A stretch of 64,000 nucleotides of DNA from Vicinamibacterales bacterium (GCA_050742535.1 JBOGIQ010000002.1:1575-65574), one strand, 5' to 3'; shown: positions 17,571 to 35,103, numbered from the stretch's first letter. The notes: generated by a model from the sequence alone, not told the origin. A program made the numbers and translations.

Positions 17571-18218
17571 TTGGCCCAAATTTTTCCCCCTTGGTGGAAC
17601 AAACTTCCGATCGTGGCGGCCGTCGTGGTCGTTCTCGGTCCCACACTCGCCACCGCGGGCGTCTGGTACTACTTTTCTCCGTGGTACACCGACGTCGGCT
17701 ACCGTCCCGTTCAGCCGGTCCCGTACAGCCATAAGCTCCACGTCGGCGAGCTTGGTCTCGATTGCCGGTACTGTCACGCCTCGGTTGAGACGTCTCCCGT
17801 CGTGAACCTCCCGCCGACGCGAACCTGCATGAACTGCCATCAGACCGTGATGAGGGACAGCGAGACGCTCGCGCCTATTCGGTCAAGCGCGCAGAGCGGA
17901 CGACCGATGCGCTGGATTCGGGTACACAACCTTCCCGACTACGCCTATTTCGCACACAACGCGCACGTGGCGGCGGGAATTGGCTGTGTCAGCTGCCACG
18001 GCCGCGTCGACGAGATGGAAGTGGTCACGCAGATGACGCCCCTCAGCATGAGCTGGTGCCTCGACTGCCATCGCAACCCCAGTCCGCAGAGACGGCCTGT
18101 CTCCGAGGTGACCAATATGAAGTGGACACCTCCGCGGGACGTCCAGACGCTCGCGGCGCGGCTCGACCGTGAACGACCGGTCAACCCGCCGACTGATTGT
18201 TCGGGGTGCCACCGGTGA
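17571..18218 (+). CDS. actA: ACIII ActA-like pentahaem cytochrome c (copy 1)
   Basis: Five CxxCH motifs (CRYCH, CMNCH, CVSCH, CLDCH, CSGCH) and an N-terminal TM. The TTG start is supported by alignment of (M)AQIFPP with the paralog MPQIFRR at 44274. Shared blocks: DCRYCH.SVETSP, PPT.TCMNCH, RP.RWIRVH.LPD. Confidence 0.9.
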   Translation: MAQIFPPWWNKLPIVAAVVVVLGPTLATAGVWYYFSPWYTDVGYRPVQPVPYSHKLHVGELGLDCRYCHASVETSPVVNLPPTRTCMNCHQTVMRDSETLAPIRSSAQSGRPMRWIRVHNLPDYAYFAHNAHVAAGIGCVSCHGRVDEMEVVTQMTPLSMSWCLDCHRNPSPQRRPVSEVTNMKWTPPRDVQTLAARLDRERPVNPPTDCSGCHR

Positions 18219-21217
18219 GTCGGACCTATTGGCGCAGCCTCGAGCAGATCGACGAACGCCCCGAATTCCGCACTTTTTTCGAGCGCGAGTTCCAGGAGGG
18301 TGCCTCGGAGCTTCCCGAAGGAATCACCCGGCGCGACATGATGATGCTCCTGGGCGCGTCGTTGTCGCTCGCCGGGCTCGCGGGGTGCCGGCGCCCCGCC
18401 GAAGAAATTGTTCCCTACGTCACGGCCCCTGAGGAGATCGTTCCTGGGATCCCCCGACAGTACGCGACGACCATGCCGTTCCGCCGGAGCGCTTACGGCC
18501 TGATCGTCGAGAGCCACGAAGGACGACCGACCAAGATCGAGGGCAATCCCTCGCATCCGTCGACCATGGGTGCCTCCAGCTCGCGCGTCCAGGCATCCGT
18601 ACTCGGCCTGTACGATCCCGACCGCTCGCAATCGGTCAGGTTGCGGGGCACGCGGAAGTCCTGGGACGAATTCGTGAAGGCGTGGGAGGAGCTCGCCAAA
18701 GCTCATGCTGCGGATGGCGGCGCCGGCCTTGCCGTCCTCTCAGAGTCCTTTTCTTCTCCCACGCTGGCGCGCCTGGTCTCCGAGCTTCGTGCCCGCTACC
18801 CTCGCTTGCAGTGGGCGACCTACGACGCCGTCAGCGACGAGAGCCGACTGGCGGGACTGCGGTCCGCCACGGGGCGCGACCTCGATGTGATGCTGCGGTT
18901 CGATCGAGCCGCGGTGATTCTCGCCCTCGACGCCGACCCGCTGCTCACCGACCCGGAGATGATCCGTCACGCGCGAGGTTTCGCGGAGGGAAGGCGCGCG
19001 GGAACCTCCGGTGGCGAGATGAATCGACTGTACGCGGTTGAAGGGGTCTACTCGCTGACAGGGGCGATGGCGGATCATCGGCTCCGTCTCGAGAGCCGGC
19101 AGATCGCCCCCTTTGTCGCGGCGCTCGCCGCGCGCCTTGCTCTGCCCGAAGCCGCGAGCCTGGCGGGAGCTGGCGTCCCGGGTCCGGACTCACGCTGGAT
19201 CGACGTCCTTGCCAAGGACCTTCTGGCGAACCGCGGCAAGAGTCTCATCGTGGCCGGGGAGCGCCAGCCCGCGGCCGTCCACGCCGCCGTGTGCGCCTTG
19301 AACACGTACCTCGGTAACGCAGGTAAGACGGTCAGCTATTACGAGACGAAGGACGCGGCGCTTCCGAGCGTGAGCTCGTTGAATGCGCTGGTTTCCGCGA
19401 TGAAGGGCGGCACGATCCAGACGCTCGTCGTCCTGGGCGGCAATCCTGTATTCGATGCCCCTGTCGATCTCGACTTCGCCTCGGCCATGGCGAAGGTTCC
19501 TCACTCAATCGTGCTCGGACACTCGGTCGACGAAACATCCTCCAGGGCGGAGTGGCATCTCCCGCGCGCTCACTATCTCGAGTCATGGGGAGACGCGCGC
19601 GCCGTTGGTGGCACGCTCAGCATCGTCCAGCCGCTCATCCTCCCGCTGTTCGGCGGACGAACCGCCGTTGAAGTGCTCGGGCTGATGGTCGCAGGCAAGG
19701 ATCGTCCAGGCTACGACATCGTGCGTGAGACCTGGAAACCGATCCTGGGCGACGGGTTCGACAGGAAGTGGAACCGCGTCCTGCATGACGGATTGCTGTC
19801 CGGCAGCGAGCTTCCGGAAGTTGTCCCCGATCTCACTGCGCAGTCGCTGGTGGAGCTTTCGCGCCTGATCGAGGCGGGACCGCCGCGTGGCCTGGAGATC
19901 GTGTTCCTCGCCTCTCCGTCGCTTCACGATGGCCGATTCGCCAACGACGGGTGGCTGCAGGAGCTTCCCGATCCCCTCACCAAGCTGACCTGGGACAACC
20001 CCGCCCTCGTCAGCCCGAAGACCGCCGAAACGTCCGGCCTTGCGGGCGGGGATTTGATCCGTCTCGACTACGCGGGCCGCTCGCTCGAACTCCCTGTCTG
20101 GATCGTTCCCGGCATGGCGGACGGCGTGGTGGCCCTCACGCTTGGCTATGGCCGTCAGCGCGCGGGGCGGGTCGGGTCCGGGGTGGGGTTCGACACGTTC
20201 ACTGTCCGGTCCTCCCGTGCGCCTGGCTTCGATAGCGACGTCAGACTTGCCAGGGTCGGGCGCACGTATCCGCTCTCGGCGACCCAGAACCACGGCAGCA
20301 TGGAGGGGCGACCCCTCGTTCGCGAGTCGACTCTCGCCGAGCTTCAATCGAAATCTGCTGCCGGCGCGGAGCGGGGCGAGAGCGAGCATGCGGGGGAGTC
20401 GAAAGGGGGAGGAATCCCCAGCCCGATCGGAGTCTTCGAAGAGGAAGCCCCACACTTCTCCCTCTGGAAGGAGCACACCTACGATCAGGGACACCAGTGG
20501 GGAATGACGATCGACTTGAACGCCTGCATCGGCTGCAACGCGTGCATGACGGCGTGTCAGAGCGAGAACAACGTGCCGGTCGTTGGGAAGAGGCAGGTCG
20601 CAAAGGGACGCGAGATGCACTGGATCCGGGTCGACCGGTACTTCTCCGGCGAGCCGTCGGGCCCTGAGGTCGTCTTCCAGCCCGTTCCCTGCATGCAGTG
20701 CGAGGATGCCCCTTGCGAACAGGTCTGTCCGGTCGCTGCGACCGTTCACGACGGGCAGGGCCTCAACGTGATGGTCTACAACCGGTGCATCGGAACCCGC
20801 TACTGCTCGAACAACTGTCCCTACAAGGTGCGCCGCTTCAATTTCTTCAACCTCACGAAGGACACGCCCGGCATCCTCAAGCTCGCGATGAACCCGGACG
20901 TCACGGTTCGTGCGCGAGGCGTGATGGAGAAGTGCACGTACTGCACGCAAAGGATCAATCGCACGAAGATCGATGCGAAGCTCGCGGGGCGCGAGCTTCG
21001 TGACGGCGACGTGAAAACGGCATGCCAGCAGGCGTGTCCCGCCTCGGCTATAGAGTTCGGAAATCTGCGGGACCAATCGAGCCGGGTCGTGAAGGCGAAG
21101 GCCGATCCACGCAACTACGCCCTCCTCGACGAGTTGAACACGAAGCCTCGGACGACGTATCTGGCCAAGGTGCGCAACCCGAATCCGGAGCTCGAGGAAG
21201 AGAGGCCCGTTGCATGA
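18215..21217 (+). CDS. actB: ACIII ActB-like subunit (molybdopterin-oxidoreductase-like domain fused to a 4-cluster ferredoxin domain), Tat leader (copy 1)
   Basis: Twin-arginine leader ITRRDMMMLLGASLSLAGLAGC. C-terminal FeS Cys clusters CIGCNACMTAC, CMQCEDAPCEQVCP, CIGTRYCSNNCP, CTYC...CQQACP. Collinear with the paralog at 44941. The start is taken as GTG 18215 (GTGA overlap with the actA stop); TTG 18197 is the alternative. Confidence 0.9.
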   Translation: MSRTYWRSLEQIDERPEFRTFFEREFQEGASELPEGITRRDMMMLLGASLSLAGLAGCRRPAEEIVPYVTAPEEIVPGIPRQYATTMPFRRSAYGLIVESHEGRPTKIEGNPSHPSTMGASSSRVQASVLGLYDPDRSQSVRLRGTRKSWDEFVKAWEELAKAHAADGGAGLAVLSESFSSPTLARLVSELRARYPRLQWATYDAVSDESRLAGLRSATGRDLDVMLRFDRAAVILALDADPLLTDPEMIRHARGFAEGRRAGTSGGEMNRLYAVEGVYSLTGAMADHRLRLESRQIAPFVAALAARLALPEAASLAGAGVPGPDSRWIDVLAKDLLANRGKSLIVAGERQPAAVHAAVCALNTYLGNAGKTVSYYETKDAALPSVSSLNALVSAMKGGTIQTLVVLGGNPVFDAPVDLDFASAMAKVPHSIVLGHSVDETSSRAEWHLPRAHYLESWGDARAVGGTLSIVQPLILPLFGGRTAVEVLGLMVAGKDRPGYDIVRETWKPILGDGFDRKWNRVLHDGLLSGSELPEVVPDLTAQSLVELSRLIEAGPPRGLEIVFLASPSLHDGRFANDGWLQELPDPLTKLTWDNPALVSPKTAETSGLAGGDLIRLDYAGRSLELPVWIVPGMADGVVALTLGYGRQRAGRVGSGVGFDTFTVRSSRAPGFDSDVRLARVGRTYPLSATQNHGSMEGRPLVRESTLAELQSKSAAGAERGESEHAGESKGGGIPSPIGVFEEEAPHFSLWKEHTYDQGHQWGMTIDLNACIGCNACMTACQSENNVPVVGKRQVAKGREMHWIRVDRYFSGEPSGPEVVFQPVPCMQCEDAPCEQVCPVAATVHDGQGLNVMVYNRCIGTRYCSNNCPYKVRRFNFFNLTKDTPGILKLAMNPDVTVRARGVMEKCTYCTQRINRTKIDAKLAGRELRDGDVKTACQQACPASAIEFGNLRDQSSRVVKAKADPRNYALLDELNTKPRTTYLAKVRNPNPELEEERPVA

Positions 21218-21897
21218 TCGCCCGCTCACGGGGTGTGCTGGGCGTGTTTATGCTCATCTCGCTTGTCGCCGTCAGCGGCTGCGTGCGCGGCTGCACGTCA
21301 AGCCGCCCTCCCATCCATCTCAACCCGAGCATGGACGACCAGCCGAAGGTCCGCCCGCAGGCGGCCAGCGATTTCTTCTACAACGGAGCGTCGATGCGAG
21401 AGCCCGTTCCGGGAACAATCCCGATCGGCGGGCTTCGGGAGGACGAGCCCTTCTTTACAGGCAAAGGAGCGGACGGCCAGTTCGTCGCGATGAGTCCCGT
21501 AGCCGTGGACGAGGCGCTTGTCGAGCGCGGCCGCCAGAGATACGGGATCTATTGCCAGCCTTGCCACGACGCTCGAGGGGACGGGAAGGGGATTCTGTTT
21601 CAGCGAGGCAACGTTCCCACCGCCACCTTCCACCAGGACAAGGTGCTGAAGTACCCGGACGGGCAAATCTTCGACGTCATCACGAACGGGGTAGGACTGA
21701 TGTCCGGGTACCGCTGGCCGATCCCTCCCGCGGACAGGTGGGCAATCGTCGCCTACGTGCGAACGATGCAGCGCGATCGGCAGGCACGCGCCGCGAGCGC
21801 ATCCGCCTCCGCTCCGGCTCCCGCCTCCGCTCCAGCTACGGCGGACAAGCCGGCGGACACGCCCGCCCCGCCTCCGCCGCCCAGCGGCGGCAAATGA
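21214..21897 (+). CDS. actE: ACIII ActE-like monohaem lipoprotein cytochrome c (copy 1)
   Basis: ATG at 21214 (ATGA overlap with the actB stop). Lipobox LVAVSGC, a single CQPCH, and DRWAIVAYVR, matching the paralog at 50031 (CAPCH, DRWAIAAYIR). Pro/Ala-rich tail. Confidence 0.85.
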   Translation: MIARSRGVLGVFMLISLVAVSGCVRGCTSSRPPIHLNPSMDDQPKVRPQAASDFFYNGASMREPVPGTIPIGGLREDEPFFTGKGADGQFVAMSPVAVDEALVERGRQRYGIYCQPCHDARGDGKGILFQRGNVPTATFHQDKVLKYPDGQIFDVITNGVGLMSGYRWPIPPADRWAIVAYVRTMQRDRQARAASASASAPAPASAPATADKPADTPAPPPPPSGGK

Positions 21898-21907: not shown

Positions 21908-23836
21908 GTGATGAAGAACCGCAAACTGCAGTTCCTTCTCGGTCCCGTCCTCGTCCTCGTGCTGTTCGGGGCGGTGGTCCAGATGGCCTCGTGGCTGATG
22001 AGCCGTGAGTACAAAGAGCCTTACGGAGCCCCTGCGGCGACGGTGGACTCCACGCCACGCGCCGCGGGACTGGCTGACGAAAAGGCTGACACAGAGGCGA
22101 GGGCCAAGGCGAAGCTGTACGAGGAGGCCGAATATCGGACCTTTCCAGTCGTTGGGAGCCGCGTAGCCATTTGGTCGGTCGCGCAGCTCCACCTGCTGTT
22201 CGCGGCGTTCGTCCTTGCCGTTCCGCTGTTCGCATTCATCATCGAGGTGATCGGCTACAAGACCGGAGATCTCCGATACGACAAGCTCGCGCACGAGTTC
22301 ACGAAGCTCCTGTCCGTCTCCTTCTCGCTCACGGCGACCTTCGGCGCGTTCCTGACGTTCATGCTGATCGCGCTGTACCCGAAGTTCACGAACTATCTGA
22401 TGAGCGTGTTCTCTCCCACGTTTCTCCCGTACGTACTGCTCTTCTTTGCCGAGGCGGGCTTCCTCTACACCTATTACTACGGCTGGGGGAAGTTCCATCC
22501 GCTGGTCCACCTTGGTTTAGGGCTCGGCCTGAACCTCGTGGGTACGGCGATCATGTTCATCGCCAATGCCTGGCTGACGTTCATGATGTCGCCGAACGGG
22601 GTCTCGGATACGGGGGCGGTGATCTCCGTCATGGACGCGGTCTACAACTTCACGTGGATGCCGATCAACGTCCATCGAGTGATCGCCAACGTCGCGTTCG
22701 GCGGATCGGTCGCGGCCGCCTACGCGGCCTTCAAGTTCCTCCAGGCGAAATCCGACGAGGAGCGCGCGCACTACGACTGGATGGGTTACATCGGGAACTT
22801 CGTCGCCATCAGCGCCTTCCTTCCGCTTCCCTTCGCCGGATACTGGCTCGCGAGTGAGATCTACGCCTATTCGCAGACGCTCGGGCTGACGATGATGGGC
22901 GGAGCCTTCTCATGGCTCTTCATCATTCAGGCCGTTCTGATCGGGAACCTCTTCCTCGCCGCCAACTTCTATCTCTGGCTCGGGATGGGACGTGTCGAGG
23001 AAGCGCAGCCGCTGCAGAAGTTCGTCAAGTACCTGCTCATCGCGATCGCGATCTGCTTCGCGGTCTGGGCGACACCGCGATCGATCATCGCGACGGTCTC
23101 CGAGCTCCGGGCGATGGGCGGATCGGCACACCCCGTTCTCGGCTTTCTCGGCGTCATGTCCGCCAAGAACACCGCCGTGAACATCCTGATCCTCACGACC
23201 TTCATGAGCTTCCTCCTCTATCGCCGGACAGGGAAGGTCGCCACGGTGCCGTGGGCGAAAACGGGCCATGCGGCGCAGCTCACGATCTTCGCCGCCGCCG
23301 CGATCTTCGTCATCTTCCTCGGCGTCTACGGGTACTTTGTCGAGGCGAGCGTCAGGATTGGCCTGTCGGTGCCCCAGGTCGGTTCGGTTCTGTTCGCGAT
23401 GGTGGCCATCACCGCGATCGACATCTTCCTCTTCCGCGGGGCGAAGACGGCCGCGGTGCGCTGGGGAAGGGTCCCGGCCAGTTCCCAGTACGTGCTGATT
23501 TTCATCGCGGTCACGTTCACGTGGCTCATGGGACTCATGGGCTACGTTCGCTCCGGGCTCCGCCAGCACTGGCATGTCTACGGCGTCATTCGGGACAACT
23601 CGCCCGACGCGTTCACGCCCACCCTCGGCTTCGCGACGCAGGTTGTCTCGGTGACCGTGCTGATCTTCTTCTTCCTGATCGGCTTCGTGTTCTGGCTCGC
23701 GAGCCTGCACGAGCGAGCCGAGCATCGAGCATATGCGCCATCACCCCAGAAAGGGCCGCACACGGGCGTGGACGTGGTTCTCGATGGCGCGCGCCTCTCC
23801 GCGCCGAACGTCGAGGGGCGCACCGGGCTGTCATGA
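21908..23836 (+). CDS. Cytochrome bd subunit I (CydA) superfamily homolog, ~14 TM, no Q-loop, no adjacent CydB
   Basis: 642 aa. Blocks alignable by eye to E. coli CydA: AQLHLLFAAFVLAVPL (H19 region), LLFFAEAGFLYTYYYGWGKF (conserved Glu region), FIANAWLTFMMSPNGV (ANGWMQNP-like), NVHRVIANVAFGGSVAAAYAAF (H186 region). There is an extra N-terminal TM and about 7 extra C-terminal hydrophobic segments. Confidence 0.8.
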   Translation: MMKNRKLQFLLGPVLVLVLFGAVVQMASWLMSREYKEPYGAPAATVDSTPRAAGLADEKADTEARAKAKLYEEAEYRTFPVVGSRVAIWSVAQLHLLFAAFVLAVPLFAFIIEVIGYKTGDLRYDKLAHEFTKLLSVSFSLTATFGAFLTFMLIALYPKFTNYLMSVFSPTFLPYVLLFFAEAGFLYTYYYGWGKFHPLVHLGLGLGLNLVGTAIMFIANAWLTFMMSPNGVSDTGAVISVMDAVYNFTWMPINVHRVIANVAFGGSVAAAYAAFKFLQAKSDEERAHYDWMGYIGNFVAISAFLPLPFAGYWLASEIYAYSQTLGLTMMGGAFSWLFIIQAVLIGNLFLAANFYLWLGMGRVEEAQPLQKFVKYLLIAIAICFAVWATPRSIIATVSELRAMGGSAHPVLGFLGVMSAKNTAVNILILTTFMSFLLYRRTGKVATVPWAKTGHAAQLTIFAAAAIFVIFLGVYGYFVEASVRIGLSVPQVGSVLFAMVAITAIDIFLFRGAKTAAVRWGRVPASSQYVLIFIAVTFTWLMGLMGYVRSGLRQHWHVYGVIRDNSPDAFTPTLGFATQVVSVTVLIFFFLIGFVFWLASLHERAEHRAYAPSPQKGPHTGVDVVLDGARLSAPNVEGRTGLS

Positions 23837-24516
23837 CAATCCCGCTCGTTGCCCGGATTGGCGTTCTCGTCCTCGCGACGACTGCGTTCTATGGCTACGT
23901 CGGCCAGATGGTGCCTCAAAGCGAAGTTCAGCCTCCCGAGGAGATCGCCATCAGAGCCGACCTCACGACGCCAGAGATGGTCGAGATCGGCCGCGAGATC
24001 GCTGACGGTAAGGGCCTGTGCCGGACCTGCCACACGATCGGCCAGAGCGGTGCGCTCCGGTTCCCCGACCTCGCTGGAGTCGCCGGTCGCGCGGCGGAGC
24101 GCGTCCAGGGCCTGAGCGCTCTCGACTACTTCGCCCAATCGCTGTACGAACCTGACGCCTTCGTTGTGCCGGGATTCAATCCGGGGATGCCGACGATCAA
24201 CAGGCCCCCGATTGGCCTGACCGATCAGGAGATCCTCTGCGTGATCGCGTACCTCCAGTCTCTTGGCGGCACGCCGACGGTCACGCTCCAGACGAGCCAC
24301 CGCTACTACGCCGCGCCGGCCACGCCGGGTGCGGCGCCGCCTGGCGCCGCGGCAGGCGCACCCGTTACGACGCCGGCCGCACCGGGCGTACCGGGTACCA
24401 CGCCGGCCGCTCCGGGCGCTCCGCAGAAACCCGAGCCTGGCCAGCCGTTGCCTCTTACCCGGCCACCAGCCGAGCCGGCTCCCGCGGCCCCTGCGAGAGG
24501 AGCGGTCACACGATGA
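23833..24516 (+). CDS. Membrane-anchored monohaem cytochrome c with Pro/Ala-rich tail
   Basis: ATG 23833 (ATGA overlap with the upstream stop). N-terminal TM IGVLVLATTAFYGYV, a single CRTCH, and a downstream GMP Met-ligand candidate. Only the distal 227 codons of track ORF 22912-24516 are credible. Confidence 0.8.
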   Translation: MTIPLVARIGVLVLATTAFYGYVGQMVPQSEVQPPEEIAIRADLTTPEMVEIGREIADGKGLCRTCHTIGQSGALRFPDLAGVAGRAAERVQGLSALDYFAQSLYEPDAFVVPGFNPGMPTINRPPIGLTDQEILCVIAYLQSLGGTPTVTLQTSHRYYAAPATPGAAPPGAAAGAPVTTPAAPGVPGTTPAAPGAPQKPEPGQPLPLTRPPAEPAPAAPARGAVTR

Positions 24517-25331
24517 ACATCCTCGTCGTCGTCGCGGTTGTTGCCGCGTTCGGGCTTCTCCGCTTTCGTCGGGCCAACCTGCTGTTGTGGGCCATCGCCT
24601 GGTGGGCGGGGATTTACGTCCTGCTCCGATTCGGATTCACGATCCCGATTCCCGCCTCCGTCATCTCGATCTACATGGGAATTGTCTCTCTCGCGATCCT
24701 GGCGTACATGTCTTCCAGTCAGGAACGCCGCGAAGAGGTCTCCCGCCCGCTCATCCGGTTGATGACCGAGAAGCGGTACACCGCGCTCCTCGCCGCAACG
24801 GCGATTGCCATACCGGCGCTCGCAGCCGCGAACGTCTACGTCAAGTTGAATGTCCCCCTCGAGCCTCCGTTCTTTCCGCGAACGATCCATCCGGCATCGC
24901 CTTCCGAGATCAGGGTTCACGACAAGACGATCCCGATCGACGCTGGAGACAACCCCTTCAGACAACTCGAACGATCGAATCCGGAAGAGTTCCGCAGGCA
25001 CGTAGAAAACGGGCGCCAGGTCTACTACCGGAACTGCGTCTTCTGCCACGGCGACAACCTGGGGGGCAACGGCATGTTCGCGCATGCGTTGAACCCGATC
25101 CCGACCAATTTCGCCGACGGGCAGACGCTCCCGAATCTCAGCGAGACGTTCCTGTTCTGGCGAATCTCCAAGGGAGGACCGGGGATGCCCGACGAAGGGG
25201 CGCCATGGGACACGGCCATGCCCGCCTGGGAGAAGTTCCTCAAAGAAGAAGAGATGTGGGACGTGATTCTCTTTCTCTACGATTTCACAGGCCAGAGGCC
25301 CGCTGTGCGCGCCCTGGAGGCCGCGCACTGA
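24513..25331 (+). CDS. Polytopic (about 4 TM) membrane protein with C-terminal monohaem cytochrome c domain
   Basis: 272 aa, ATGA overlap at 24513. Four N-terminal hydrophobic segments, then CVFCH and GGPGMP...MPAW typical of class I cytochrome c. Confidence 0.8.
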   Translation: MNILVVVAVVAAFGLLRFRRANLLLWAIAWWAGIYVLLRFGFTIPIPASVISIYMGIVSLAILAYMSSSQERREEVSRPLIRLMTEKRYTALLAATAIAIPALAAANVYVKLNVPLEPPFFPRTIHPASPSEIRVHDKTIPIDAGDNPFRQLERSNPEEFRRHVENGRQVYYRNCVFCHGDNLGGNGMFAHALNPIPTNFADGQTLPNLSETFLFWRISKGGPGMPDEGAPWDTAMPAWEKFLKEEEMWDVILFLYDFTGQRPAVRALEAAH

Positions 25332-27034
25332 TGCGACCCCGACTGATGTCGCGCGCGTGTTTCGCGGCTCTGGTCGCCTGGTTGTGCGCCGGGATGGGAT
25401 CCGTGCGCCCGCAGGGGCAGGGTCCCGACGTCGGCACCGAAGCGCAGCGGGAGTCGGGCAAGAACCTGTATCTCAAGTACTGCTCGCAGTGCCACGGCGA
25501 CAAAGGGGACGCCGCGGGCTACGCTACACCGCATCTGCTCCCCCGGCCCCGCGACTTCACGCAGGGCAAGTTCAAGGTTCGCACGACCCCGAGCGGAGCG
25601 CTCCCGAGCCATCAGGATCTCGTCAACATCATCAGGCTGGGCATGCCCTATACCTCGATGCCCGCCTGGCCCGACTTGTCGGACGGGGAGGTGTCGGATC
25701 TCGCCTACTTCCTGACCACGTTCTCCGCCGACTTCTCGAACCCTGAGCGTGTGCCGCCGCCGATGGAGCTCCCGGGTGCGCCGAGCTCGACGAACGAGTC
25801 CATCGAGCTCGGAAAGAAGCTTTACGTGGATACCGGCTGCATCAAGTGCCACGGCAACCTCGGTCGGGGCGATGGACCATCGGCCCCGACGCTGACGGAC
25901 GACCTGGGGCAGCCAATACGGGCAGCAGACCTCACGCAGAGCTGGACCTTCCGGGGAGGATCCTCCCGCGAGGATATTTTCCGGACGATGACCGCGGGGT
26001 TCAACGGCACGCCAATGCCGTCGTTTGTCGACAGCCTCTCGACAGAGCAGCGGTGGGCGATTACGGACTATATAGCCTCGCTCTCGGGGAGCAACGGGCC
26101 TGGCTATACCAATCTCGTCATTGCGAAGCCGGTCCAGGATCCAATCGATTTGGAGAAAGGGGCTGCAAGCTTCGAATCTGCTCCGGTGGCCCGCTTCCCG
26201 ATCATCGGACAGATTACGGAGCCCGGACGCTCGTTTCATCCTCCCGCGACCTCCATGACGGTTCAGGCCATCTACGACGCCGAGTCGATCGCCCTTCTCG
26301 TTCGATGGCACGACATGAGCGCGGACAAGGCTGGAAAGAACGGGCCGACGCTTCCCGTGCCGCCGGAGGAGGAAGAGTCGGCGCCGGCAGGTGCGCAGAA
26401 GGCCGGAGAGAGCCCGTTTGGCGATGCGGAACTCGCGCCAGCTCAGAAGACCGAAACGGACCCCTTCGCCGAGGAAGCACCAGCCGTCCCGGCATCCGAG
26501 TTCTCCGACGCGGTCTCGATTCAGGTTCCCTCGCAGGTGCCGGCCGGCTCTCGCAAGCCCTATTTCATTCTTGGTGACACCCAGAGCTCGGTGGATCTCT
26601 GGTTCTTCGACCTGGCCCGCAACGGACCCCTTCAGTTCACCGGCCGGGGAAGCGCGGACGTCTCGCCCAACGACACGGGCGATCTCACCGGTGTCGCGAG
26701 CTACGACCAGGGACAATGGTCGGCCATCTTCAAACGGCCCCTTCGCGCCAGCTCGGGTGCCCCGTTGTCGCCCGGGCAGTTCATGCCGGTCGCCTTTTCG
26801 GTCTGGGACGGGTTCTCCCGCGAGCGTGGCAACCGGCGTGGTCTCACGGTCTGGCAGTCTCTCTACCTCGAGCCGGAAGCGGTTCCGTCGGTGATCGGTC
26901 CGATGGTGAGGATTGCCCTGATCATTCTTGCTATCGAACTCATCGTCATCGGCTTGGTGCGCTGGCGTTACGGCTCACGCGCCCGCGGGGCGCTCGGTGG
27001 TGACCCAAGTCAACCGGCAGCCACGCGAGCGTGA
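25331..27034 (+). CDS. Dihaem cytochrome c fused to an EB_dh (ethylbenzene dehydrogenase gamma / DOMON-like haem-binding) domain, C-terminal TM anchor
   Basis: ATG 25331 (TGATG overlap). Signal peptide; CSQCH and CIKCH. C-terminal half shows the EB_dh-like pattern (IYDAESIALLVRWHD..., WSAIFKRPL..., VAFSVWDGFSRERGNRRGLTVW). Final TM IALIILAIELIVIGLV. The upstream 356 codons of track ORF 24263-27034 are an out-of-frame artefact. Confidence 0.75.
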   Translation: MRPRLMSRACFAALVAWLCAGMGSVRPQGQGPDVGTEAQRESGKNLYLKYCSQCHGDKGDAAGYATPHLLPRPRDFTQGKFKVRTTPSGALPSHQDLVNIIRLGMPYTSMPAWPDLSDGEVSDLAYFLTTFSADFSNPERVPPPMELPGAPSSTNESIELGKKLYVDTGCIKCHGNLGRGDGPSAPTLTDDLGQPIRAADLTQSWTFRGGSSREDIFRTMTAGFNGTPMPSFVDSLSTEQRWAITDYIASLSGSNGPGYTNLVIAKPVQDPIDLEKGAASFESAPVARFPIIGQITEPGRSFHPPATSMTVQAIYDAESIALLVRWHDMSADKAGKNGPTLPVPPEEEESAPAGAQKAGESPFGDAELAPAQKTETDPFAEEAPAVPASEFSDAVSIQVPSQVPAGSRKPYFILGDTQSSVDLWFFDLARNGPLQFTGRGSADVSPNDTGDLTGVASYDQGQWSAIFKRPLRASSGAPLSPGQFMPVAFSVWDGFSRERGNRRGLTVWQSLYLEPEAVPSVIGPMVRIALIILAIELIVIGLVRWRYGSRARGALGGDPSQPAATRA

Positions 27035-27060
27035 GCTGTTGCGGGCAATCCGGAGGAGTC

Positions 27061-29070
27061 ATGTACAAGAGCATCTACGTTCCCGTCGATAACTCGGACC
27101 ACTCCAACCGCGCCGTCACCTGCAGCCTCGCGCTCGGGAAGGCGTTCTCGGCGAAGCTGGTCGGCTGTCATGTCTACGCGGCACAGCTGCACGACTATCG
27201 CTTCAGGCAGATGGAGTACACCCTGCCCGAGGAGTACATCGACGAGGTGGAACTGGAGCGCCAGCGCAAGATCCACGACAGCCTCATCACGATGGGCCTC
27301 AAGCTCATCTCCGACAGCTATCTCGATGGCATGTCGCGCCAGTGTGGCGAGTCGGGCCTGGCGTTCGAGCCGCGGATGATGGACGGGAAGCATCACACGG
27401 AGATCCTCAAGGATCTCGCCGGCTCACCGCACGACCTGGTCGTAATCGGCGCATTAGGCATCGGGCGCGCCAAGGACAGCGTCATCGGCTCCGTGTGCGA
27501 ACGCGTGGCTCGCCAGTCCGACCGCGATGTCTGGGTGGTCAAGCACGTCCCCGAGCCGGGCGAGGCCGAGCGGGACACGATCCTCGTTGGCATCGACGGC
27601 AGCCCGCAGTCGTTCGGCGCCCTCATGACCGCCATCGACCTCGCACGCTCGTTCGGGAAGAAGGTCGAAGCGATCGCTGTCTACGACCCCTATCTGCACT
27701 ATTCCGTGTTCAACGGCATCGTCAACGTCCTCACCGAGCAGGCGGCGAAGGTCTTCCGCTTCGAGGAGCAGAATCAGCTGCACGAGGAGATCATCGATAC
27801 GGGCCTCGCGCAGATCTACCAGTCACATCTCGAGGTCGGCGAGCGGATGGTGAGCGAAACAGGCATCGAGATCAAGAAGACGCTGCTCGACGGCAAGCCC
27901 TTCCAGAAAATCATCGACCACGCGCGGAAAACGAATCCGTGGCTGATCGTGCTGGGACGGATCGGCGTCCACAGCCCGAAGGGCGAGACCAGTCTCGGGA
28001 GCAACGCGGAGAACATCCTCCGCTCCGCGCCATGCGACGTCCTCCTCTCCACGCGGCTCGAAGTGCCGCGCCTCGACCTGCGCGCCGAAGAAACCATCAG
28101 ATGGACGCCTGAAGCCGAGGCGCGGATGACGCACGTGCCCGAGCAGGTCAAGGGCATCGCGCGCACCGGCGTCCTCCGGCTGGCGCTCGAGAAGGGACAC
28201 TCCGTGATCACGAGCGCGGTGATCGACGAAGCGATGGATCGGTTCATGCCGAAGAGTGCCTCGGCCGCGACGAAAGCGCTGGCCGAGGCGGTGGCTCTCG
28301 AGCGGGCGAAGTCCGGCCCGGTGTCGATGTGCCGGTCGTGCGGCGTCGCGGCGACGCAGAGTGGCGCCGTCAAGTGCACCGTGTGCGGTTCCACGGACTT
28401 CGAGGTGATCTCGCAGGAGATGATCGAGAAGATTGCGGCCGCCGAGGGAGGCCTCGAGGAAGAGACGACCTACGACGGACGCAAGCTCCGCTGGTCCGAG
28501 GACGCGAGGAAGGGCCTGTGGACCATGAAGAACGCGTATCAGCGCCGCCGCGTCAAGGCGCGTGTCGAAAAACGCGCGCGCATGATGAAGCTCGATGCAA
28601 TCACGCTCGACTTCGCGCGGCAGGTGATCGAGGAAGAAACCGGAGCGCCGCTGGAGATCCAGGTTCGTACTGCGCCACTCCCTGAGAGCGCCGCGGCCGC
28701 AACGGGCGAAGCCCGGCTCGTGGTCCGCGACGACAAGAAGAACCCGTTGATCTCGACCTTCGATTGGACGAGTGATGCCGCACAACGCATCCTGCGCGTG
28801 CCGGCCGGCTTCATGCGGAACCAGACGCAGGAGCGGATCGAGGAGCTTGCGCGGGAACGCGCCGCGTCAACCATCGACCTGGCGCTCGTCGAGGAGGGCA
28901 TCGAGATCGGCAAGAAGATGATGGCCGAGATGATCGCGACCTATCAGGGCCCGTCATCGGCGAAGCCCGCGGCTGCGACACCGCGTGCGTCGGTCAGCGG
29001 CAACGGCAATGACAGCGGGTATCTCAATGAGGTGAGCCCGCTCACGGCACGCAGTGCGTCTGAGGGGTGA
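27061..29070 (+). CDS. Tandem universal stress protein (Usp) domains fused to three PCP_red (BchB/ChlB C-terminal-like) repeats
   Basis: ATG 27061 is preceded by GGAGGAG (27052-27058). Usp-type starts MYKSIYVPVDNSDHS and ILVGIDGSPQS. The three ~45-aa repeats are IRWTPEAEARMTHVPEQVKGIARTG..., LRWSEDARKGLWTMKNAYQRRRVKAR..., FDWTSDAAQRILRVPAGFMRNQTQER.... A CxxC..CxxC knuckle (CRSCG...CTVCG) sits between repeats 1 and 2. Confidence 0.75.
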   Translation: MYKSIYVPVDNSDHSNRAVTCSLALGKAFSAKLVGCHVYAAQLHDYRFRQMEYTLPEEYIDEVELERQRKIHDSLITMGLKLISDSYLDGMSRQCGESGLAFEPRMMDGKHHTEILKDLAGSPHDLVVIGALGIGRAKDSVIGSVCERVARQSDRDVWVVKHVPEPGEAERDTILVGIDGSPQSFGALMTAIDLARSFGKKVEAIAVYDPYLHYSVFNGIVNVLTEQAAKVFRFEEQNQLHEEIIDTGLAQIYQSHLEVGERMVSETGIEIKKTLLDGKPFQKIIDHARKTNPWLIVLGRIGVHSPKGETSLGSNAENILRSAPCDVLLSTRLEVPRLDLRAEETIRWTPEAEARMTHVPEQVKGIARTGVLRLALEKGHSVITSAVIDEAMDRFMPKSASAATKALAEAVALERAKSGPVSMCRSCGVAATQSGAVKCTVCGSTDFEVISQEMIEKIAAAEGGLEEETTYDGRKLRWSEDARKGLWTMKNAYQRRRVKARVEKRARMMKLDAITLDFARQVIEEETGAPLEIQVRTAPLPESAAAATGEARLVVRDDKKNPLISTFDWTSDAAQRILRVPAGFMRNQTQERIEELARERAASTIDLALVEEGIEIGKKMMAEMIATYQGPSSAKPAAATPRASVSGNGNDSGYLNEVSPLTARSASEG

Positions 29071-29921
29071 GCTCGTACCGCTTTTGCCGCACCGATGACA
29101 TCGGGCTACTCGTCGACGCGCTGAATCGCTGTTGGCTGCCGTACTTTCCCGACGAGGGGCCGATGACGCCGGCCGCGTTCAAGCGGTCGATCCGCGACCT
29201 GCAGGTGTGGTGCAGCAGCTGCATGGTCGCCTTCTCGGGGTCCGACCCGATCGGCGTCCTGATCGGCGCCAAGCGGCCTTCCGGAACCCTCGTCCATACA
29301 CTCGCGGTCCATCCCGATCATCGGCGTCAGGGTCATGGGCGCCACCTGCTCGCGTCGCTCGGCTCGAAGCTCGCGATCCTCGGCCCCCCGAGAATTGCCG
29401 CTGAGGTCCCCGAGACTCTCGCGCCTGCCTGCGCGCTGTTCGGCGCAAGCGGGTATGTCCAGGAAGCGCTGCTGACAGACTACGTCTCGCAGCGAGCAGC
29501 CGAAGACAGTGAAACCCGTCAAGGGTTCGTCATCCCGGTCACGGTTGACGATCTCGCGGCCAATGACCTCCTTGGACAGGTGCAACCGCAGGTCTGCTGG
29601 AATCGCTCCGTCGAGACGCTCACGGCAAGGAAGGACGAGATCGCAGGACTCGCCGTCGCCTCCGACGAGCGAATCGAGGCCTTTATTCTCTACGTGATGA
29701 ACGGCATAAAAGAGACCGAGATTCTATCGCTCCGCTCCTTCATCGAGGACGGTGGCGCCCGCTTGAAGCAGCTGCTCTCTCAACTCCACGCGCGAGGCGT
29801 TGAGACCTTCCGGTTCCCGAAGGTCCACCCGGCCGAGATCTCGAAGGAGTGGCTGGAGACGCTCGGGTTCCGCGCTGCCGGCAGGCACCTGCTCTATGCA
29901 GCGAAGGCGCGGTCCGACTAG
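29067..29921 (+). CDS. GNAT-family N-acetyltransferase
   Basis: 284 aa, GTGA overlap with the upstream stop. Acetyl-CoA motif LAVHPDHRRQGHGRHLLASL. Confidence 0.7.
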   Translation: MSSYRFCRTDDIGLLVDALNRCWLPYFPDEGPMTPAAFKRSIRDLQVWCSSCMVAFSGSDPIGVLIGAKRPSGTLVHTLAVHPDHRRQGHGRHLLASLGSKLAILGPPRIAAEVPETLAPACALFGASGYVQEALLTDYVSQRAAEDSETRQGFVIPVTVDDLAANDLLGQVQPQVCWNRSVETLTARKDEIAGLAVASDERIEAFILYVMNGIKETEILSLRSFIEDGGARLKQLLSQLHARGVETFRFPKVHPAEISKEWLETLGFRAAGRHLLYAAKARSD

Positions 29922-31755: not shown

Positions 31756-31764
31756 GCGATCGCG

Positions 31765-34290: not shown

Positions 34291-34571
34291 GATTTTTGGA
34301 GCTCCGACCATTCAGTGTCGAGCTCGACGTCGGCGATGTGCTTCGCGCGTCGTCGGAGATAGAGAAAGAAGCCCACGAACCCGCCCTGCACCGTCAGCGT
34401 GACGCACAGCAGCGCCATGATCCCAAGCCTGGTCCCGTCGATGATCGACGTTTCGTGCGCCCCGAAGCAGACCGGGCAGGCCAGGGCGTTCGAACTGCTG
34501 CCGATCACCATGACCGCTGCCATCAGTAGAACCCGCATGATGACGAGACGGATCGATTTCGTCTTCTTCAT
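34287..34571 (-). CDS. Small membrane protein with CPVC motif (hypothetical)
   Basis: 94 aa from ATG 34571 (MKKTKS...). Signal/TM segment, CPVCFG, then a second TM. ATGA overlaps at both ends tie it into the oxidase operon. The longer track ORF (to 34787) overlaps neighbouring genes. Confidence 0.5.
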   Translation of the reverse strand: MKKTKSIRLVIMRVLLMAAVMVIGSSSNALACPVCFGAHETSIIDGTRLGIMALLCVTLTVQGGFVGFFLYLRRRAKHIADVELDTEWSELQKS

Positions 34572-35094: not shown

Positions 35095-35103
35095 GAATGC
35101 CGC

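What the first reader, a model, noticed from the sequence alone, without database searches (positions are those of the whole stretch)
21908..23836. CydA homolog with the haem-binding core retained, no Q-loop, and extra helices at both ends
Seen in sequence: the four-helix core blocks of CydA can be aligned by eye. They include the N-terminal His (AQLHLLF, E. coli H19 region), the conserved Glu segment (LLFFAEAGFLYTYYYGWGKF), the ANGWMQNP-like FIANAWLTFMMSPNGV, and the H186-region NVHRVIANVAF. After that helix every loop between hydrophobic segments is short (roughly 30 residues or fewer), so the large periplasmic Q-loop that forms the quinol site in canonical CydA is missing. There is also one extra TM plus a ~55-residue charged linker at the N-terminus, and about seven further hydrophobic segments at the C-terminus (about 14 TM total). 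No CydB/CydX-like gene lies nearby. Inference: the electron donor is probably not quinol but the neighbouring c-type cytochromes, and the extra helices might substitute for CydB. I could not decide by eye whether a Met393 (b558 ligand) equivalent exists.
Basis: partly seen in the sequence, partly recalled or inferred. Interest (0 to 1): 0.75.

Follow-up and report, generated by a model that had tools for sequence, protein, structure and literature searches.

The report
Bd-like oxidase subunit without quinol site
This gene encodes a soil-acidobacterial member of a branch of the cytochrome bd family that is already described but has never been tested biochemically (the 14-helix "bd-like" or OR-N2 type); it lacks the quinol-binding loop and sits in an operon full of c-type cytochromes, so it confirms a known puzzle rather than revealing a new kind of protein.

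Summary
ORF 21908-23836 (+) is an intact 642-aa CydA homologue (PF01654, 75 bits). AlphaFold2 predicts 14 TM helices. It has no Q-loop, no CXXCH motif and no cydB partner.

It keeps the equivalents of E. coli H19 (H95), E107 (E182), H126 (H201) and H186 (H256). M417 is a candidate for M393. E99 is Tyr (Y175) and E445 is Ser (S549).

This pattern, the residue spacings, the helix count and the operon (several cytochromes c plus an EbdC/NxrC-like protein) match the published OR-N2 "bd-like oxidase" subfamily (Lücker 2013; Murali, Gennis and Hemp 2021). The kind is therefore known, but its function has never been tested.

Cytochrome c donors are supported. The flanking cytochromes overlap the gene or lie within 10 nt of it, and in other lineages they are fused to it.

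No evidence supports the idea that the extra helices replace CydB.

New context found here:
- The gene is co-operonic with ActA/ActB/ActE paralogues of alternative complex III.
- The matching ActC/ActD/ActF paralogues lie about 16 kb away on the other strand, next to a haem-copper oxidase.
- An AhbD/NirJ-like radical SAM cluster lies between them.
- This island is conserved in many metagenomic loci.

Most likely role: the haem subunit of a cytochrome-c-fed terminal oxidase. This is inferred, not shown.

The parts
21908..23836 (+). CydA-like OR-N2-type membrane haem protein (642 aa; alternative start ATG 21911)
   Evidence: PF01654 at 75 bits. All top Foldseek hits are CydA (E 1e-8 to 1e-5). 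14 TM helices in the AF2 model. No CXXCH motif.
21920..22156 (+). Family-specific N-terminal TM helix (residues 5-34) plus a poorly ordered periplasmic linker (residues 35-83)
   Evidence: AF2 helix 4-33 followed by pLDDT below 50 for 32-54 and 65-71. Hydropathy peak at residues 9-27. The region is not covered by CydA alignments.
22157..22819 (+). Region with significant sequence homology to CydA TM1-TM6. Carries H95 (22190-22192, E. coli H19), Y175 (22430-22432, E99 position), E182 (22451-22453, E107), H201 (22508-22510, H126) and H256 (22673-22675, H186).
   Evidence: phmmer and hmmsearch alignments to 9r2g, 5doq, 7ose and 6rko. Conservation: H95 40/42, Y175 39/42, E182 34/42, H201 42/43, H256 41/43.
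22820..22909 (+). Short periplasmic loop (about 30 residues, two short helices) where canonical CydA carries the Q-loop
   Evidence: AF2 secondary structure for 304-333.
22910..23707 (+). Seven further TM helices (TM7-TM13). Contains the candidate haem b558 Met ligand M417 (23156-23158), conserved K420, H408 and H556, and S549 (23552-23554) at the position of E. coli E445.
   Evidence: AF2 model. Conservation: M417 36/43, K420 42/43, H408 37/42, H556 38/40, S549 34/41. The RQxW motif lines up with the CydA GRQPW motif. No PDB match when modelled alone.
17571..18218 (+). ActA2: TM-anchored pentahaem cytochrome c, a paralogue of ACIII ActA
   Evidence: 43% identity to ActA at 44274-44933. Five CXXCH motifs. 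Pfam Cytochrome_C7/c3.
18197..21217 (+). ActB2: Tat-signal, molybdopterin-like domain fused to a four-cluster Fe-S domain, a paralogue of ACIII ActB
   Evidence: 47% identity over the full length to ActB at 44941-48045, with all Cys motifs aligned. QrcC, QrcB and MoCo_extend_TAT hits.
21214..21897 (+). ActE2: monohaem cytochrome c with a probable lipoprotein signal (VSGC), a paralogue of ACIII ActE. Its start overlaps the ActB2 stop (ATGA).
   Evidence: 39% identity to ActE, E 1e-42. Sequence read. Fused to the CydA-like protein in P0069.
23833..24516 (+). cytc2: N-terminally TM-anchored monohaem cytochrome c (CRTCH). Overlaps the CydA-like stop by 4 nt.
   Evidence: ORF translation and motif. 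Homologous domain fused to the C-terminus of the CydA-like protein in P0121, P0123 and P0137.
24513..25331 (+). cytc3: protein with about four hydrophobic segments followed by a periplasmic monohaem cytochrome c domain
   Evidence: Pfam Cytochrome_CBB3 and Cytochrom_C. Hydropathy and CXXCH.
25331..27034 (+). Dihaem cytochrome c + EB_dh (EbdC/NxrC-like) domain + C-terminal TM anchor ('alternative NxrC'-type protein)
   Evidence: Pfam EB_dh plus two cytochrome c domains. TIGR03477. PDB matches 6h5l_B E 6e-53, 2ivf_C 1e-7, 7b04_C 7e-4. Start read.
27031..29921 (+). Usp-PCP_red protein (27031-29070) and GNAT acetyltransferase (29067-29921), each overlapping the preceding gene by 4 nt and syntenic in most loci
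   Evidence: Pfam. Synteny in 59 and 48 of 80 loci respectively.
30434..33168 (+). Mrp/ApbC Fe-S carrier (30434-31318), small PCP_red protein (31315-31755), and radical SAM/SPASM AhbD/NirJ-like enzyme with a C-terminal PCP_red domain (31765-33168)
   Evidence: Pfam and NCBIfam. Syntenic downstream of the CydA-like gene in many loci and convergent to the cox genes in metagenome loci.
33481..37460 (-). Haem-copper oxidase genes: COX2 (33481-34311), COX4_pro (34768-35094), COX3 (ORF 35104-35952) and COX1 (35697-37460)
   Evidence: Pfam and NCBIfam.
37480..38202 (-). 240-aa secreted CarboxypepD_reg-like protein, conserved between ActF2 and COX1
   Evidence: Pfam. Synteny.
38348..41612 (-). ActC2 (40113-41612), ActD2 (39553-40113) and ActF2 (38348-39556): the membrane subunits that the ActA2/B2/E2 set lacks
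   Evidence: 58%, 44% and 39% identity to ActC, ActD and ActF at 48045-51861. NrfD Pfam hit. Arrangement conserved in metagenome loci; in L138 it lies divergently next to ActA/ActB2/CydA-like.

Best explanation
The gene encodes an OR-N2-type ('bd-like') member of the cytochrome bd superfamily in a Vicinamibacterales (Acidobacteriota) genome.

Shown here:
- The protein has the CydA fold with 14 TM helices.
- It keeps the His that ligates the active-site haem (H95), the His ligand (H256) and probably the Met ligand (M417) of the low-spin haem b558, and part of the cytoplasm-to-haem proton pathway (E182, H201).
- It lacks the Q-loop quinol site, the E99 and E445 carboxylates, any haem c motif and any CydB partner.
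- It is encoded in one tightly packed operon with ten c-type haem motifs on five proteins, an Fe-S protein and an EbdC/NxrC-like domain.

Inferred mechanism:
- The protein is the membrane haem subunit of a multi-subunit complex whose conserved core is CydA-like + cytc2 + cytc3 + dihaem-c/EB_dh.
- Periplasmic or membrane-anchored c-type cytochromes hand electrons to the b558-like haem near the periplasmic face.
- The electrons pass to the high-spin haem at H95. There O2 is reduced with protons drawn from the cytoplasm, which builds a membrane potential as in cytochrome bd.
- In this lineage the cytochromes are probably fed from the quinol pool by a second, split alternative complex III. Its ActA2/B2/E2 subunits are in the same operon. 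Its ActC2/D2/F2 subunits are in the convergent operon that also encodes a haem-copper oxidase.

O2 reduction itself is untested for any OR-N enzyme.
For: Family identity:
- PF01654, the CydA fold and ligand positions in residue-level alignments.
- Signature residues and their spacings match the OR-N2 row of Murali et al. Suppl. Table 6: H..Y..E, H186-equivalent to Met = 161 residues, M..N spacing 4, S..W spacing 6.
- 14 TM helices.
- The operon holds multiple cytochromes c plus an ebdC homologue, as described for OR-N2.

Partnership with cytochromes c:
- Overlapping or 10-nt-spaced genes.
- The four-gene core is conserved from Acidobacteriota to Fibrobacterota. According to the literature it is also conserved in Nitrospira, Nitrospina and anammox bacteria.
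- Natural fusions exist to ActE-like and cytc2-like cytochromes.

Proton pathway: E113, E182, H201, N209 and Y175 are each conserved in at least 34 of 42-43 homologues.

Link to ACIII:
- ActA2, ActB2 and ActE2 are 43%, 47% and 39% identical to the canonical set and are present upstream in about 55 of 80 genome loci.
- ActC2, ActD2 and ActF2 lie on the opposite strand. The island is conserved, and in L138 it is rearranged but still adjacent.
Against: - No OR-N enzyme has been purified or assayed, and no OR-N structure is in the PDB.
- Both carboxylates that are important around the high-spin haems of E. coli cytochrome bd are replaced (Y175, S549), so a third haem and bd-type O2 chemistry are not assured.
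- The same gene module occurs in strictly anaerobic anammox bacteria. There and in nitrite oxidisers it has been proposed to feed electrons to quinone, or to anchor NXR, rather than to reduce O2.
- About 13 of 80 loci lack ActA2/B2/E2 directly upstream, so the ACIII link is not obligatory.
- The organism already has two haem-copper oxidases in this window.
Confidence: 0.5

Rival explanations
1. The complex is not an oxidase. It is a cytochrome c/quinone-interacting electron-transfer module, an 'alternative complex III-like' or membrane-anchor role. The CydA-like subunit would use its b haems and its family-specific helices to pass electrons between periplasmic redox proteins (ActB2, ActA2, the EB_dh protein) and the quinone pool, in either direction.
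For: - This role was proposed for the homologous clusters of Nitrospina, Nitrospira and anammox bacteria, including strict anaerobes.
- In gene order the CydA-like gene follows ActA2-ActB2-ActE2, whereas ActC follows ActB in the canonical operon.
- The E99 and E445 carboxylates are lost.
- Seven conserved helices have no known counterpart.
Against: - No quinol-binding residues or Q-loop are present.
- The fold is not NrfD-like: ActC 6btm_C scores E 1.1 and BLASTP to ActC is not significant.
- Genuine ActC2/D2/F2 quinol-site subunits are encoded nearby, so nothing needs to replace them.
- The cytoplasm-side polar chain (E182, H201 and others) is conserved as in O2-reducing bd enzymes.
Confidence: 0.2
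2. It reduces or detoxifies another small oxidant at the high-spin haem, such as NO, H2O2, peroxynitrite or chlorite-like species. It would then act as a periplasm-fed protective sink rather than a respiratory oxidase.
For: - Canonical bd enzymes have peroxidase and NO-tolerance activities (titles and abstracts listed).
- A universal-stress-protein fusion is co-operonic.
- Two haem-copper oxidases already cover O2 respiration in this window.
Against: - Nothing in the sequence specifically points to another substrate.
- The large investment in ten c haems, an Fe-S wire and an ACIII paralogue suggests a main respiratory route.
Confidence: 0.12
3. It is an ordinary quinol-oxidising cytochrome bd subunit I, as public annotation says ('cytochrome bd ubiquinol oxidase subunit I').
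For: The Pfam family hit and the database names.
Against: - No Q-loop.
- No CydB anywhere in 64 kb.
- The E99 and E445 equivalents are lost.
- The NCBIfam bd-II equivalog scores 23 bits against a cut-off of 1025.
- 14 TM helices rather than 9.
Confidence: 0.03
4. An architectural rival, independent of function. The subunit works as a homodimer, or with an OR-N1-type paralogue encoded elsewhere, mimicking the CydA-CydB pair. On this view the extra helices do not replace CydB.
For: - In all solved bd enzymes the H19 haem lies at the subunit I/II interface.
- Murali et al. note that most paralogous families pair two CydA-like proteins, and that OR-N2 may pair with OR-N1 in Nitrospirota.
- The extra helices resemble neither CydB nor TM1-4.
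Against: - No second cydA-like gene lies in this 64-kb window.
- The rest of the genome could not be searched.
Confidence: 0.15

Closest known systems
OR-N2 subfamily of the cytochrome bd superfamily (Murali, Gennis and Hemp 2021). This is the 'cytochrome bd-like oxidase' of Nitrospira (NIDE0901-like), Nitrospina, Ca. Manganitrophus (TO_1) and anammox NXR clusters (Lücker 2010/2013).
   Same: - 14 TM helices, an N-terminal extension of about 80-100 residues before the H19-equivalent, no Q-loop and no CXXCH.
- The same signature residues and spacings: H/Y/E/H/H, M..N, S..W.
- An operon with membrane-bound cytochromes c and a dihaem-c/EB_dh 'alternative NxrC'.
- 39% identity over the full length to a Nitrospirota/Manganitrophaceae protein.
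   Different: - The host is a Vicinamibacterales acidobacterium, and no NXR genes lie in the window.
- The operon is extended upstream by ActA/ActB/ActE paralogues and downstream by Usp-PCP_red, GNAT, Mrp, PCP_red and an AhbD-like radical SAM.
- No OR-N1 partner lies nearby.
- I did not find this island organisation in the searchable literature.
Canonical quinol-oxidising cytochrome bd (CydAB(X); qOR1-3; PDB 6RKO, 7OSE, 5DOQ, 7NKZ, 9R2G)
   Same: - The CydA fold (Foldseek E 1e-8 to 1e-5).
- Significant sequence homology over TM1-6.
- The H19, E107, H126 and H186 equivalents, plus a candidate M393 equivalent.
   Different: - No Q-loop or quinol site, and no CydB or CydX.
- E99 is Tyr and E445 is Ser.
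- Five additional helices.
- The likely donors are cytochromes c.
OR-C family (cytochrome-c-fused CydA of Desulfobacterota, Campylobacterota and others)
   Same: - No quinol site, H19 kept, and a presumed cytochrome c donor.
- Some homologues of the present protein carry C-terminal cytochrome c domains, as OR-C does.
   Different: - OR-C subunit I has about 8 TM helices and its own CXXCH motifs, and it keeps both E99 and E107.
- This protein has 14 TM helices, no CXXCH motif and Tyr at the E99 position.
Alternative complex III and its supercomplex with an aa3-type oxidase (Flavobacterium johnsoniae 6BTM, Sun et al. 2018). Also ACIII followed by OR-N5 bd-like oxidases in Nitrospirales.
   Same: ACIII genes lie adjacent to terminal-oxidase genes. 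A pentahaem ActA, an Fe-S ActB and a monohaem ActE could wire quinol oxidation to an oxidase.
   Different: - Here the ACIII paralogue is split. A/B/E are co-transcribed with the OR-N2 complex. C/D/F are co-transcribed with a haem-copper oxidase on the other strand.
- The bd-like partner is OR-N2, not OR-N5.

Membership tests
Cytochrome bd superfamily (CydA fold, PF01654) | Significant match to the subunit I profile | tested here: met
   PF01654 at 75.1 bits against a cut-off of 26.2. The family profile matches 5doq_A at E 4e-17.
Cytochrome bd superfamily (CydA fold, PF01654) | CydA three-dimensional fold | tested here: met
   The ten best Foldseek PDB hits are all CydA chains, with E 1e-8 to 1e-5 and TM-score (target) 0.47-0.59.
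Cytochrome bd superfamily (CydA fold, PF01654) | Conserved His equivalent to E. coli H19 in TM1 (kept in all families, according to Murali et al.) | tested here: met
   H95 aligns with H19/H21 and is conserved in 40/42.
Canonical quinol oxidase cytochrome bd (qOR, CydAB) | Periplasmic Q-loop / quinol-binding site between TM6 and TM7 | tested here: not met
   The loop is about 30 residues (304-333) and is followed by extra TM helices.
Canonical quinol oxidase cytochrome bd (qOR, CydAB) | CydB (subunit II) partner gene | tested here: not met
   No PF02322 hit in any substantial ORF of the window. The rest of the genome was not searched.
Canonical quinol oxidase cytochrome bd (qOR, CydAB) | E99 and E445 carboxylates at the high-spin haem site | tested here: not met
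   Y175 sits at the E99/E101 position. S549 sits at the E445 position, though that alignment is weak. Both are conserved as Y and S in the family.
Canonical quinol oxidase cytochrome bd (qOR, CydAB) | His186/Met393 ligands of haem b558 | tested here: inconclusive
   H256 aligns with H186. M417 is conserved in 36/43 and lies at the periplasmic start of a helix. Its equivalence to M393 rests on topology and on the published OR-N2 table, not on a significant alignment or on measured distances.
OR-N2 subfamily (Murali et al. 2021) | 14 TM helices, no quinol site, no haem c motif in subunit I | tested here: met
   compared.
OR-N2 subfamily (Murali et al. 2021) | Signature residues: H19=H, E99=Y, E107=E, H126=H, H186=H, M393=M/N pair, E445=S, plus the nearby W and the Y-x-Y after the Glu | tested here: met
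   This protein has H95, Y175, E182, Y189/Y191, H201, H256, M417/N421 and S549/W555. The spacings are Y-E 7, H256-M417 161, M-N 4, M417-S549 132 and S-W 6. The reference OR-N2 spacings are 7, 161, 4, 133 and 6. OR-N1 has Gly at the E107 position and different spacings.
OR-N2 subfamily (Murali et al. 2021) | Operon with several cytochromes c and an EbdC (EB_dh) homologue | tested here: met
   compared. The arrangement is conserved in 80 genome loci and in a Fibrobacterota locus.
OR-N2 subfamily (Murali et al. 2021) | Phylogenetic placement inside the OR-N2 clade with the authors' reference sequences or HMMs | not tested
   The reference sequences and HMMs could not be obtained with these tools. 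The only support is 39% full-length identity to a Nitrospirota/Manganitrophaceae homologue with the same motifs.
OR-N2 subfamily (Murali et al. 2021) | O2 reductase activity with cytochrome c as donor | not testable with these tools
   This is unproven for the whole family.
OR-C family | CXXCH haem c motif(s) in subunit I; about 8 TM helices | tested here: not met
   No CXXCH motif and 14 TM helices.
Alternative complex III (neighbouring genes) | ActA pentahaem, ActB Mo-pterin-like + 4 Fe-S clusters, ActC/ActF NrfD-like, ActD, ActE monohaem | tested here: met
   All six paralogues are present, but they are split between two convergent operons. Assembly into one complex is inferred.

The most novel reading that the evidence does not exclude
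In Vicinamibacteria and related Acidobacteriota the OR-N2 protein would be the oxidase end of a previously undescribed respiratory megacomplex built around a split alternative complex III.
- The periplasmic wire (ActA2/B2/E2) is made together with the bd-like complex.
- The quinol-oxidising membrane part (ActC2/D2/F2) is made together with a haem-copper oxidase.
- One quinol dehydrogenase would then branch to two different terminal oxidases.
- The conserved AhbD/NirJ-like radical SAM and the three PCP_red-domain proteins encoded between the two operons would supply or modify the haem of the bd-like subunit.
Probability: 0.2. Interest if true: 0.7.

Novelty: new member of a known kind. Interest (0 to 1): 0.4.

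Why it matters
**An open question.** OR-N "bd-like oxidases" are presumed to be the main terminal oxidases of Nitrospira, Nitrospina and Mn-oxidising Nitrospirota. No member has been purified, assayed or solved, so whether they reduce O2 at all remains open.

**How widespread the family is.**
- More than 7,000 protein clusters at 90% identity match the query.
- The relatives retrieved are mostly from Acidobacteriota (Vicinamibacteria, Thermoanaerobaculia, Holophagae).
- In these genomes the family is uniformly mis-annotated as "ubiquinol oxidase subunit I".

**What this context adds.** The family here lies in a lineage with no NXR genes in the window, which argues against an NXR-specific role. 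The ACIII paralogues, natural cytochrome c fusions and a haem-related radical SAM cluster give concrete, testable predictions about donors, partners and cofactors.

**What it does not add.** For this particular finding the protein is not a new kind of thing.

Tried and rejected
- **Promoter and terminator scan of 16-35 kb.** Counts equalled the shuffled expectation, so the scan was uninformative.
- **Similarity of the CydA-like protein to NrfD-type ActC.** BLASTP was not significant and Foldseek to 6btm_C gave E 1.1. I rejected the idea that it is a disguised ActC.
- **Internal duplication, or a CydB-like half in the extra helices.** hhalign between helix blocks gave probability 13% or less. 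The C-terminal half modelled alone (pLDDT 76) had no PDB match with E below 0.19.
- **Haem b ligands of the EB_dh domain.** The alignment to EbdC (2ivf_C) places Leu and Arg at the positions I recall for the EbdC Met and Lys ligands (Met108 and Lys201). Conserved M305 and K405 are alternative candidates. This stayed inconclusive.
- **Context of a Nitrospirota/Manganitrophaceae homologue (P0284) and of P0160.** These are stand-alone genes next to a NuoF-like protein or unrelated genes, so they gave nothing about partners.
- **Lücker et al. 2010 (the CuB-site proposal).** The paper could not be retrieved. The proposal is known to me only through later papers. The conserved H408 and H556 might correspond to it, but this was not checked.
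- **Cultured hosts.** Cluster look-ups returned only MAG or metagenome sources.
- **Model coordinates.** The tools do not expose them, so haem docking, pocket analysis and inter-residue distances could not be done.


Full report
**1. The observation**

ORF 21908-23836 (+) is intact. It is 642 aa from the GTG at 21908, with an ATG one codon later. Its GC3 of 0.86 is typical of real genes in this 64% GC window. An identical protein is present in public data.

It matches Pfam PF01654 (cytochrome bd subunit I) at 75 bits against a cut-off of 26.
- H95 in AQLHLLF lies on E. coli H19.
- E182 in FFAEAG lies on E107.
- ANAWLTFMMSPNG lies on the ANGWMQ.P loop.
- H256 in NVHRVIAN lies on H186.

The other channel glutamate is not kept. 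The E99 position (E101 in Geobacillus) is Y175.

An AlphaFold2 model built on 37 diverse homologues is confident (pLDDT 82, pTM 0.80). It shows 14 TM helices:
- an N-terminal helix (residues 5-34) and a disordered linker that canonical CydA lacks;
- no loop longer than about 30 residues after TM5.

So there is no Q-loop. The protein has no CXXCH motif.

The window has no other cydA-like gene and no CydB in any substantial ORF. The operon's genes overlap or lie 10 nt apart, which leaves no room for a CydX-size gene.

Sequence homology runs through TM6. A weak, individually non-significant match of the C-terminal RQxW motif (RQHW here) to the CydA TM8 GRQPW motif is seen against several CydA chains. 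Together with the Pfam envelope (residues 84-600 on profile positions 2-410), this suggests the last two helices correspond to CydA TM8-9. The net additions are therefore about five helices: one N-terminal helix and two hairpins.

**2. What it is**

Foldseek against the PDB returns only CydA chains as significant hits (E 1e-8 to 1e-5). CydB is weaker, ActC (NrfD fold) is at noise level, and no OR-N-type structure exists in the library.

The literature already contains this protein type:
- Lücker et al. 2013 describe "bd-like oxidases" with 14 TM helices, N-terminal parts that align with CydA, conserved haem b ligands, membrane helices in place of the Q-loop, and no quinol-binding residues.
- Mundinger et al. 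2019 describe the conserved cluster of a bd-like oxidase, two membrane-bound cytochromes c and an alternative NxrC with two haem c motifs and one TM helix. It occurs in Nitrospira, Nitrospina and anammox bacteria.
- Murali, Gennis and Hemp 2021 formalise this as family OR-N. Subfamilies OR-N1 and OR-N2 have 14 helices. [quoted passage not shown]

Their table of signature residues for OR-N2 is H99, Y183, E190, Y197/Y199, H213, H269, M430/N434, S563, W569. The present protein has H95, Y175, E182, Y189/Y191, H201, H256, M417/N421, S549, W555. The spacings are the same or within one residue: 7, 161, 4, 132 versus 133, and 6. OR-N1 differs, with Gly at the E107 position and other spacings.

The operon also fits. 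It holds cytc2 (TM-anchored monohaem), cytc3 (several TM segments plus a monohaem domain) and a dihaem-c + EB_dh + TM protein.

I therefore file the protein under OR-N2. The one feature not tested is a tree with the authors' reference sequences. A Nitrospirota/Manganitrophaceae homologue shares 39% identity over the full length and the same motifs.

**3. Distribution**

The window comes from a Vicinamibacterales (Acidobacteriota) MAG (L001, 100% identity).
- At least 589 species-representative genomes carry a relative (capped). Most are Acidobacteriota classes, with some Binatia and Calditrichia.
- More than 7,300 clusters at 90% identity match the query.
- 1,382 clusters at 50% identity match at E of 1e-3 or better.
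- Public names are uniformly "cytochrome bd/d ubiquinol oxidase subunit I". This is misleading, because the quinol site is absent.

**4. Conserved residues and the Met393 question**

Across 43 full-length homologues down to about 30% identity:

| Residue | Conservation |
|---|---|
| H95 | 40/42 |
| H201 | 42/43 |
| H256 | 41/43 |
| Y175 | 39/42 |
| E182 | 34/42 |
| M417 | 36/43 |
| K420 | 42/43 |
| H408 | 37/42 |
| H556 | 38/40 |
| E399 | 41/43 |
| S549 | 34/41 |

M417 lies at the periplasmic start of the tenth helix. This is the same topological position as M393 at the start of E. coli TM7, and it is the residue Murali et al. list for OR-N2. It is the best candidate for the second b558 ligand, but this rests on topology, not on measured distances.

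The position of E445, a high-spin haem ligand in E. coli, is Ser. A third haem, if present, must be bound differently. The conserved periplasm-side H408 and H556 are candidates, either for that role or for the copper site that Lücker et al. 2010 proposed (cited).

**5. Partners**

The genes from ActA2 (17571) to the GNAT gene (29921) overlap by 1-22 nt or lie at most 10 nt apart.

In 80 related genome loci the order CydA-like, cytc2, cytc3, dihaem-c/EB_dh is essentially invariant. It recurs in a Fibrobacterota genome at 38% identity.

Fusion proteins give independent evidence of physical partnership:
- P0069 joins the upstream ActE-like cytochrome to the N-terminus of the CydA-like protein.
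- P0121, P0123 and P0137 join a TM helix plus cytc2-like domain(s) to its C-terminus. This is topologically consistent, because the 14-helix protein ends in the cytoplasm and cytc2 starts there.

**6. The extra helices**

Two tests addressed the suggestion that they replace CydB:
- Profile-profile comparison of helix blocks shows no repeat. The best is TM1-4 versus TM5-8, at probability 13%.
- The C-terminal 323 residues modelled alone match nothing in the PDB (best E 0.19; CydB E 1.1).

There is no positive evidence for the idea, but a purely functional substitution cannot be excluded.

**7. Wider context (not in the finding)**

Upstream of the gene lie paralogues of three ACIII subunits. The canonical ACIII is in the same window at 44274-51861.
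- ActA2 has five CXXCH motifs and is 43% identical to ActA.
- ActB2 has a Tat signal and all its Fe-S cysteine motifs, and is 47% identical to ActB.
- ActE2 is a monohaem protein with a probable lipoprotein signal, 39% identical to ActE.

They are present directly upstream in about 55 of 80 loci and absent from about 13.

The membrane subunits that this set lacks are encoded about 16-20 kb downstream on the other strand: ActC2 (58% identity to ActC), ActD2 (44%) and ActF2 (39%). They appear to form one operon with a CarboxypepD_reg-like protein and a haem-copper oxidase, COX1/3/4/2.

Between the two convergent operons lie:
- Usp-PCP_red;
- a GNAT acetyltransferase;
- an Mrp/ApbC Fe-S carrier;
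- a small PCP_red protein;
- a radical SAM/SPASM enzyme. Its best matches are AhbD (haem b synthase, E 1e-89 but below the cut-off) and NirJ2, and it is extended by a PCP_red domain.

This whole island is conserved in genome and metagenome loci. In L138 the ActA/ActB2/CydA-like operon lies divergently next to ActC2, so the two halves stay neighbours even when rearranged.

I did not find this organisation described in the searchable literature. ACIII-like components next to bd-like proteins have been noted in Ca. Manganitrophus, and ACIII followed by OR-N5 in Nitrospirales.

**8. Mechanism**

Shown: the fold, the retained and lost ligands, the topology, the operon, the synteny and the fusions.

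Inferred:
- Electrons enter from c-type cytochromes at the periplasmic face and reach a His/Met low-spin haem b.
- They then reach a high-spin haem at H95, where O2 is reduced.
- Protons are conducted from the cytoplasm along the conserved E113, Y187-Y191, H201, E182, N209, Y175 positions.
- The cytochromes are fed from quinol by the split ACIII-2.

The main rival is that the complex exchanges electrons with quinone, or serves as an anchor, rather than reducing O2. This was proposed for nitrite oxidisers and anammox bacteria. It is weakened here because real ActC2/F2 subunits are available and no quinone-site features are present. It is not excluded.

AhbD homologues with added domains can have non-haem substrates, so the haem-maturation reading of the radical SAM gene is only a lead.

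**9. Verdict**

But this is a member of a family described in 2010-2013 and named OR-N2 in 2021, not a new type.

Its value is as a well-conserved, abundant soil-bacterial representative of an enzyme family whose activity is still unproven. The conserved context (split ACIII, second oxidase, radical SAM/PCP_red genes) appears not to have been described and gives testable hypotheses.

Noticed in passing
window 38348-41612 (-) with 17571-21897 (+): A second alternative complex III is split. ActA2/B2/E2 are co-operonic with the bd-like gene. ActC2/D2/F2 (58%, 44% and 39% identity to the canonical subunits) lie on the opposite strand with a haem-copper oxidase. The arrangement is conserved in metagenome loci. 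In L138 the two halves are divergent neighbours.
   Followed up: partly
window 27031-33168 (+): Three PCP_red-domain proteins are conserved downstream of the bd-like operon in many loci: a Usp fusion, a 146-aa protein and a radical SAM/SPASM AhbD/NirJ-like enzyme. A GNAT acetyltransferase and an Mrp/ApbC Fe-S carrier accompany them. This may be a tetrapyrrole-modifying or maturation system, but AhbD homologues with extra domains can act on non-haem substrates.
   Followed up: partly
window 44274-56642 (+): A complete canonical ACIII operon (ActABCDEF) is followed by SCO1 and a caa3-type oxidase (COX2 with a cytochrome c domain, COX1, COX3). The 64-kb window therefore encodes two ACIII sets, two haem-copper oxidases and the bd-like complex.
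   Followed up: partly
window 41649-42437 (-): A chlorite-dismutase-family protein (possibly a ChdC/HemQ-type coproheme decarboxylase) lies directly upstream of ActC2. In the closer metagenome loci it is syntenic. Together with the AhbD-like radical SAM gene, this would give oxygen-dependent and oxygen-independent haem b synthases in one island.
   Followed up: no
window 37480-38202 (-): A 240-aa secreted CarboxypepD_reg/fn3-like protein of unknown role is conserved between ActF2 and COX1 in nearly all related loci.
   Followed up: no
proteins P0069, P0121, P0123, P0137 (homologues, not in the window): Natural fusions of the bd-like subunit with its neighbouring cytochromes. The ActE-like cytochrome is fused at the N-terminus. 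A TM helix plus one or two cytc2-like domains is fused at the C-terminus. These fused forms resemble the OR-C architecture.
   Followed up: yes
window 25331-27034 (+), residues about 36-247: The dihaem cytochrome c part of the EB_dh protein is strongly similar (E 6e-53) to PDB 6H5L chain B, deposited as 'conserved hypothetical cytochrome protein'. In the EbdC alignment, the positions I recall for the EbdC Met and Lys haem b ligands are not kept in the EB_dh part. M305 and K405 are conserved alternatives.
   Followed up: partly
public annotation of homologues: Relatives in JGI and NCBI are named 'cytochrome bd/d ubiquinol oxidase subunit I', although the family lacks the quinol site and CydB. 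Metabolic reconstructions of soil Acidobacteriota that count these as high-affinity quinol oxidases are probably wrong.
   Followed up: no
L081-L083 (Nitrospirota/Manganitrophaceae contigs): A 39%-identical homologue with the same motifs stands alone next to a NuoF-like (Complex1_51K) gene, without cytochrome c or EB_dh neighbours. Family members therefore occur in quite different contexts.
   Followed up: no
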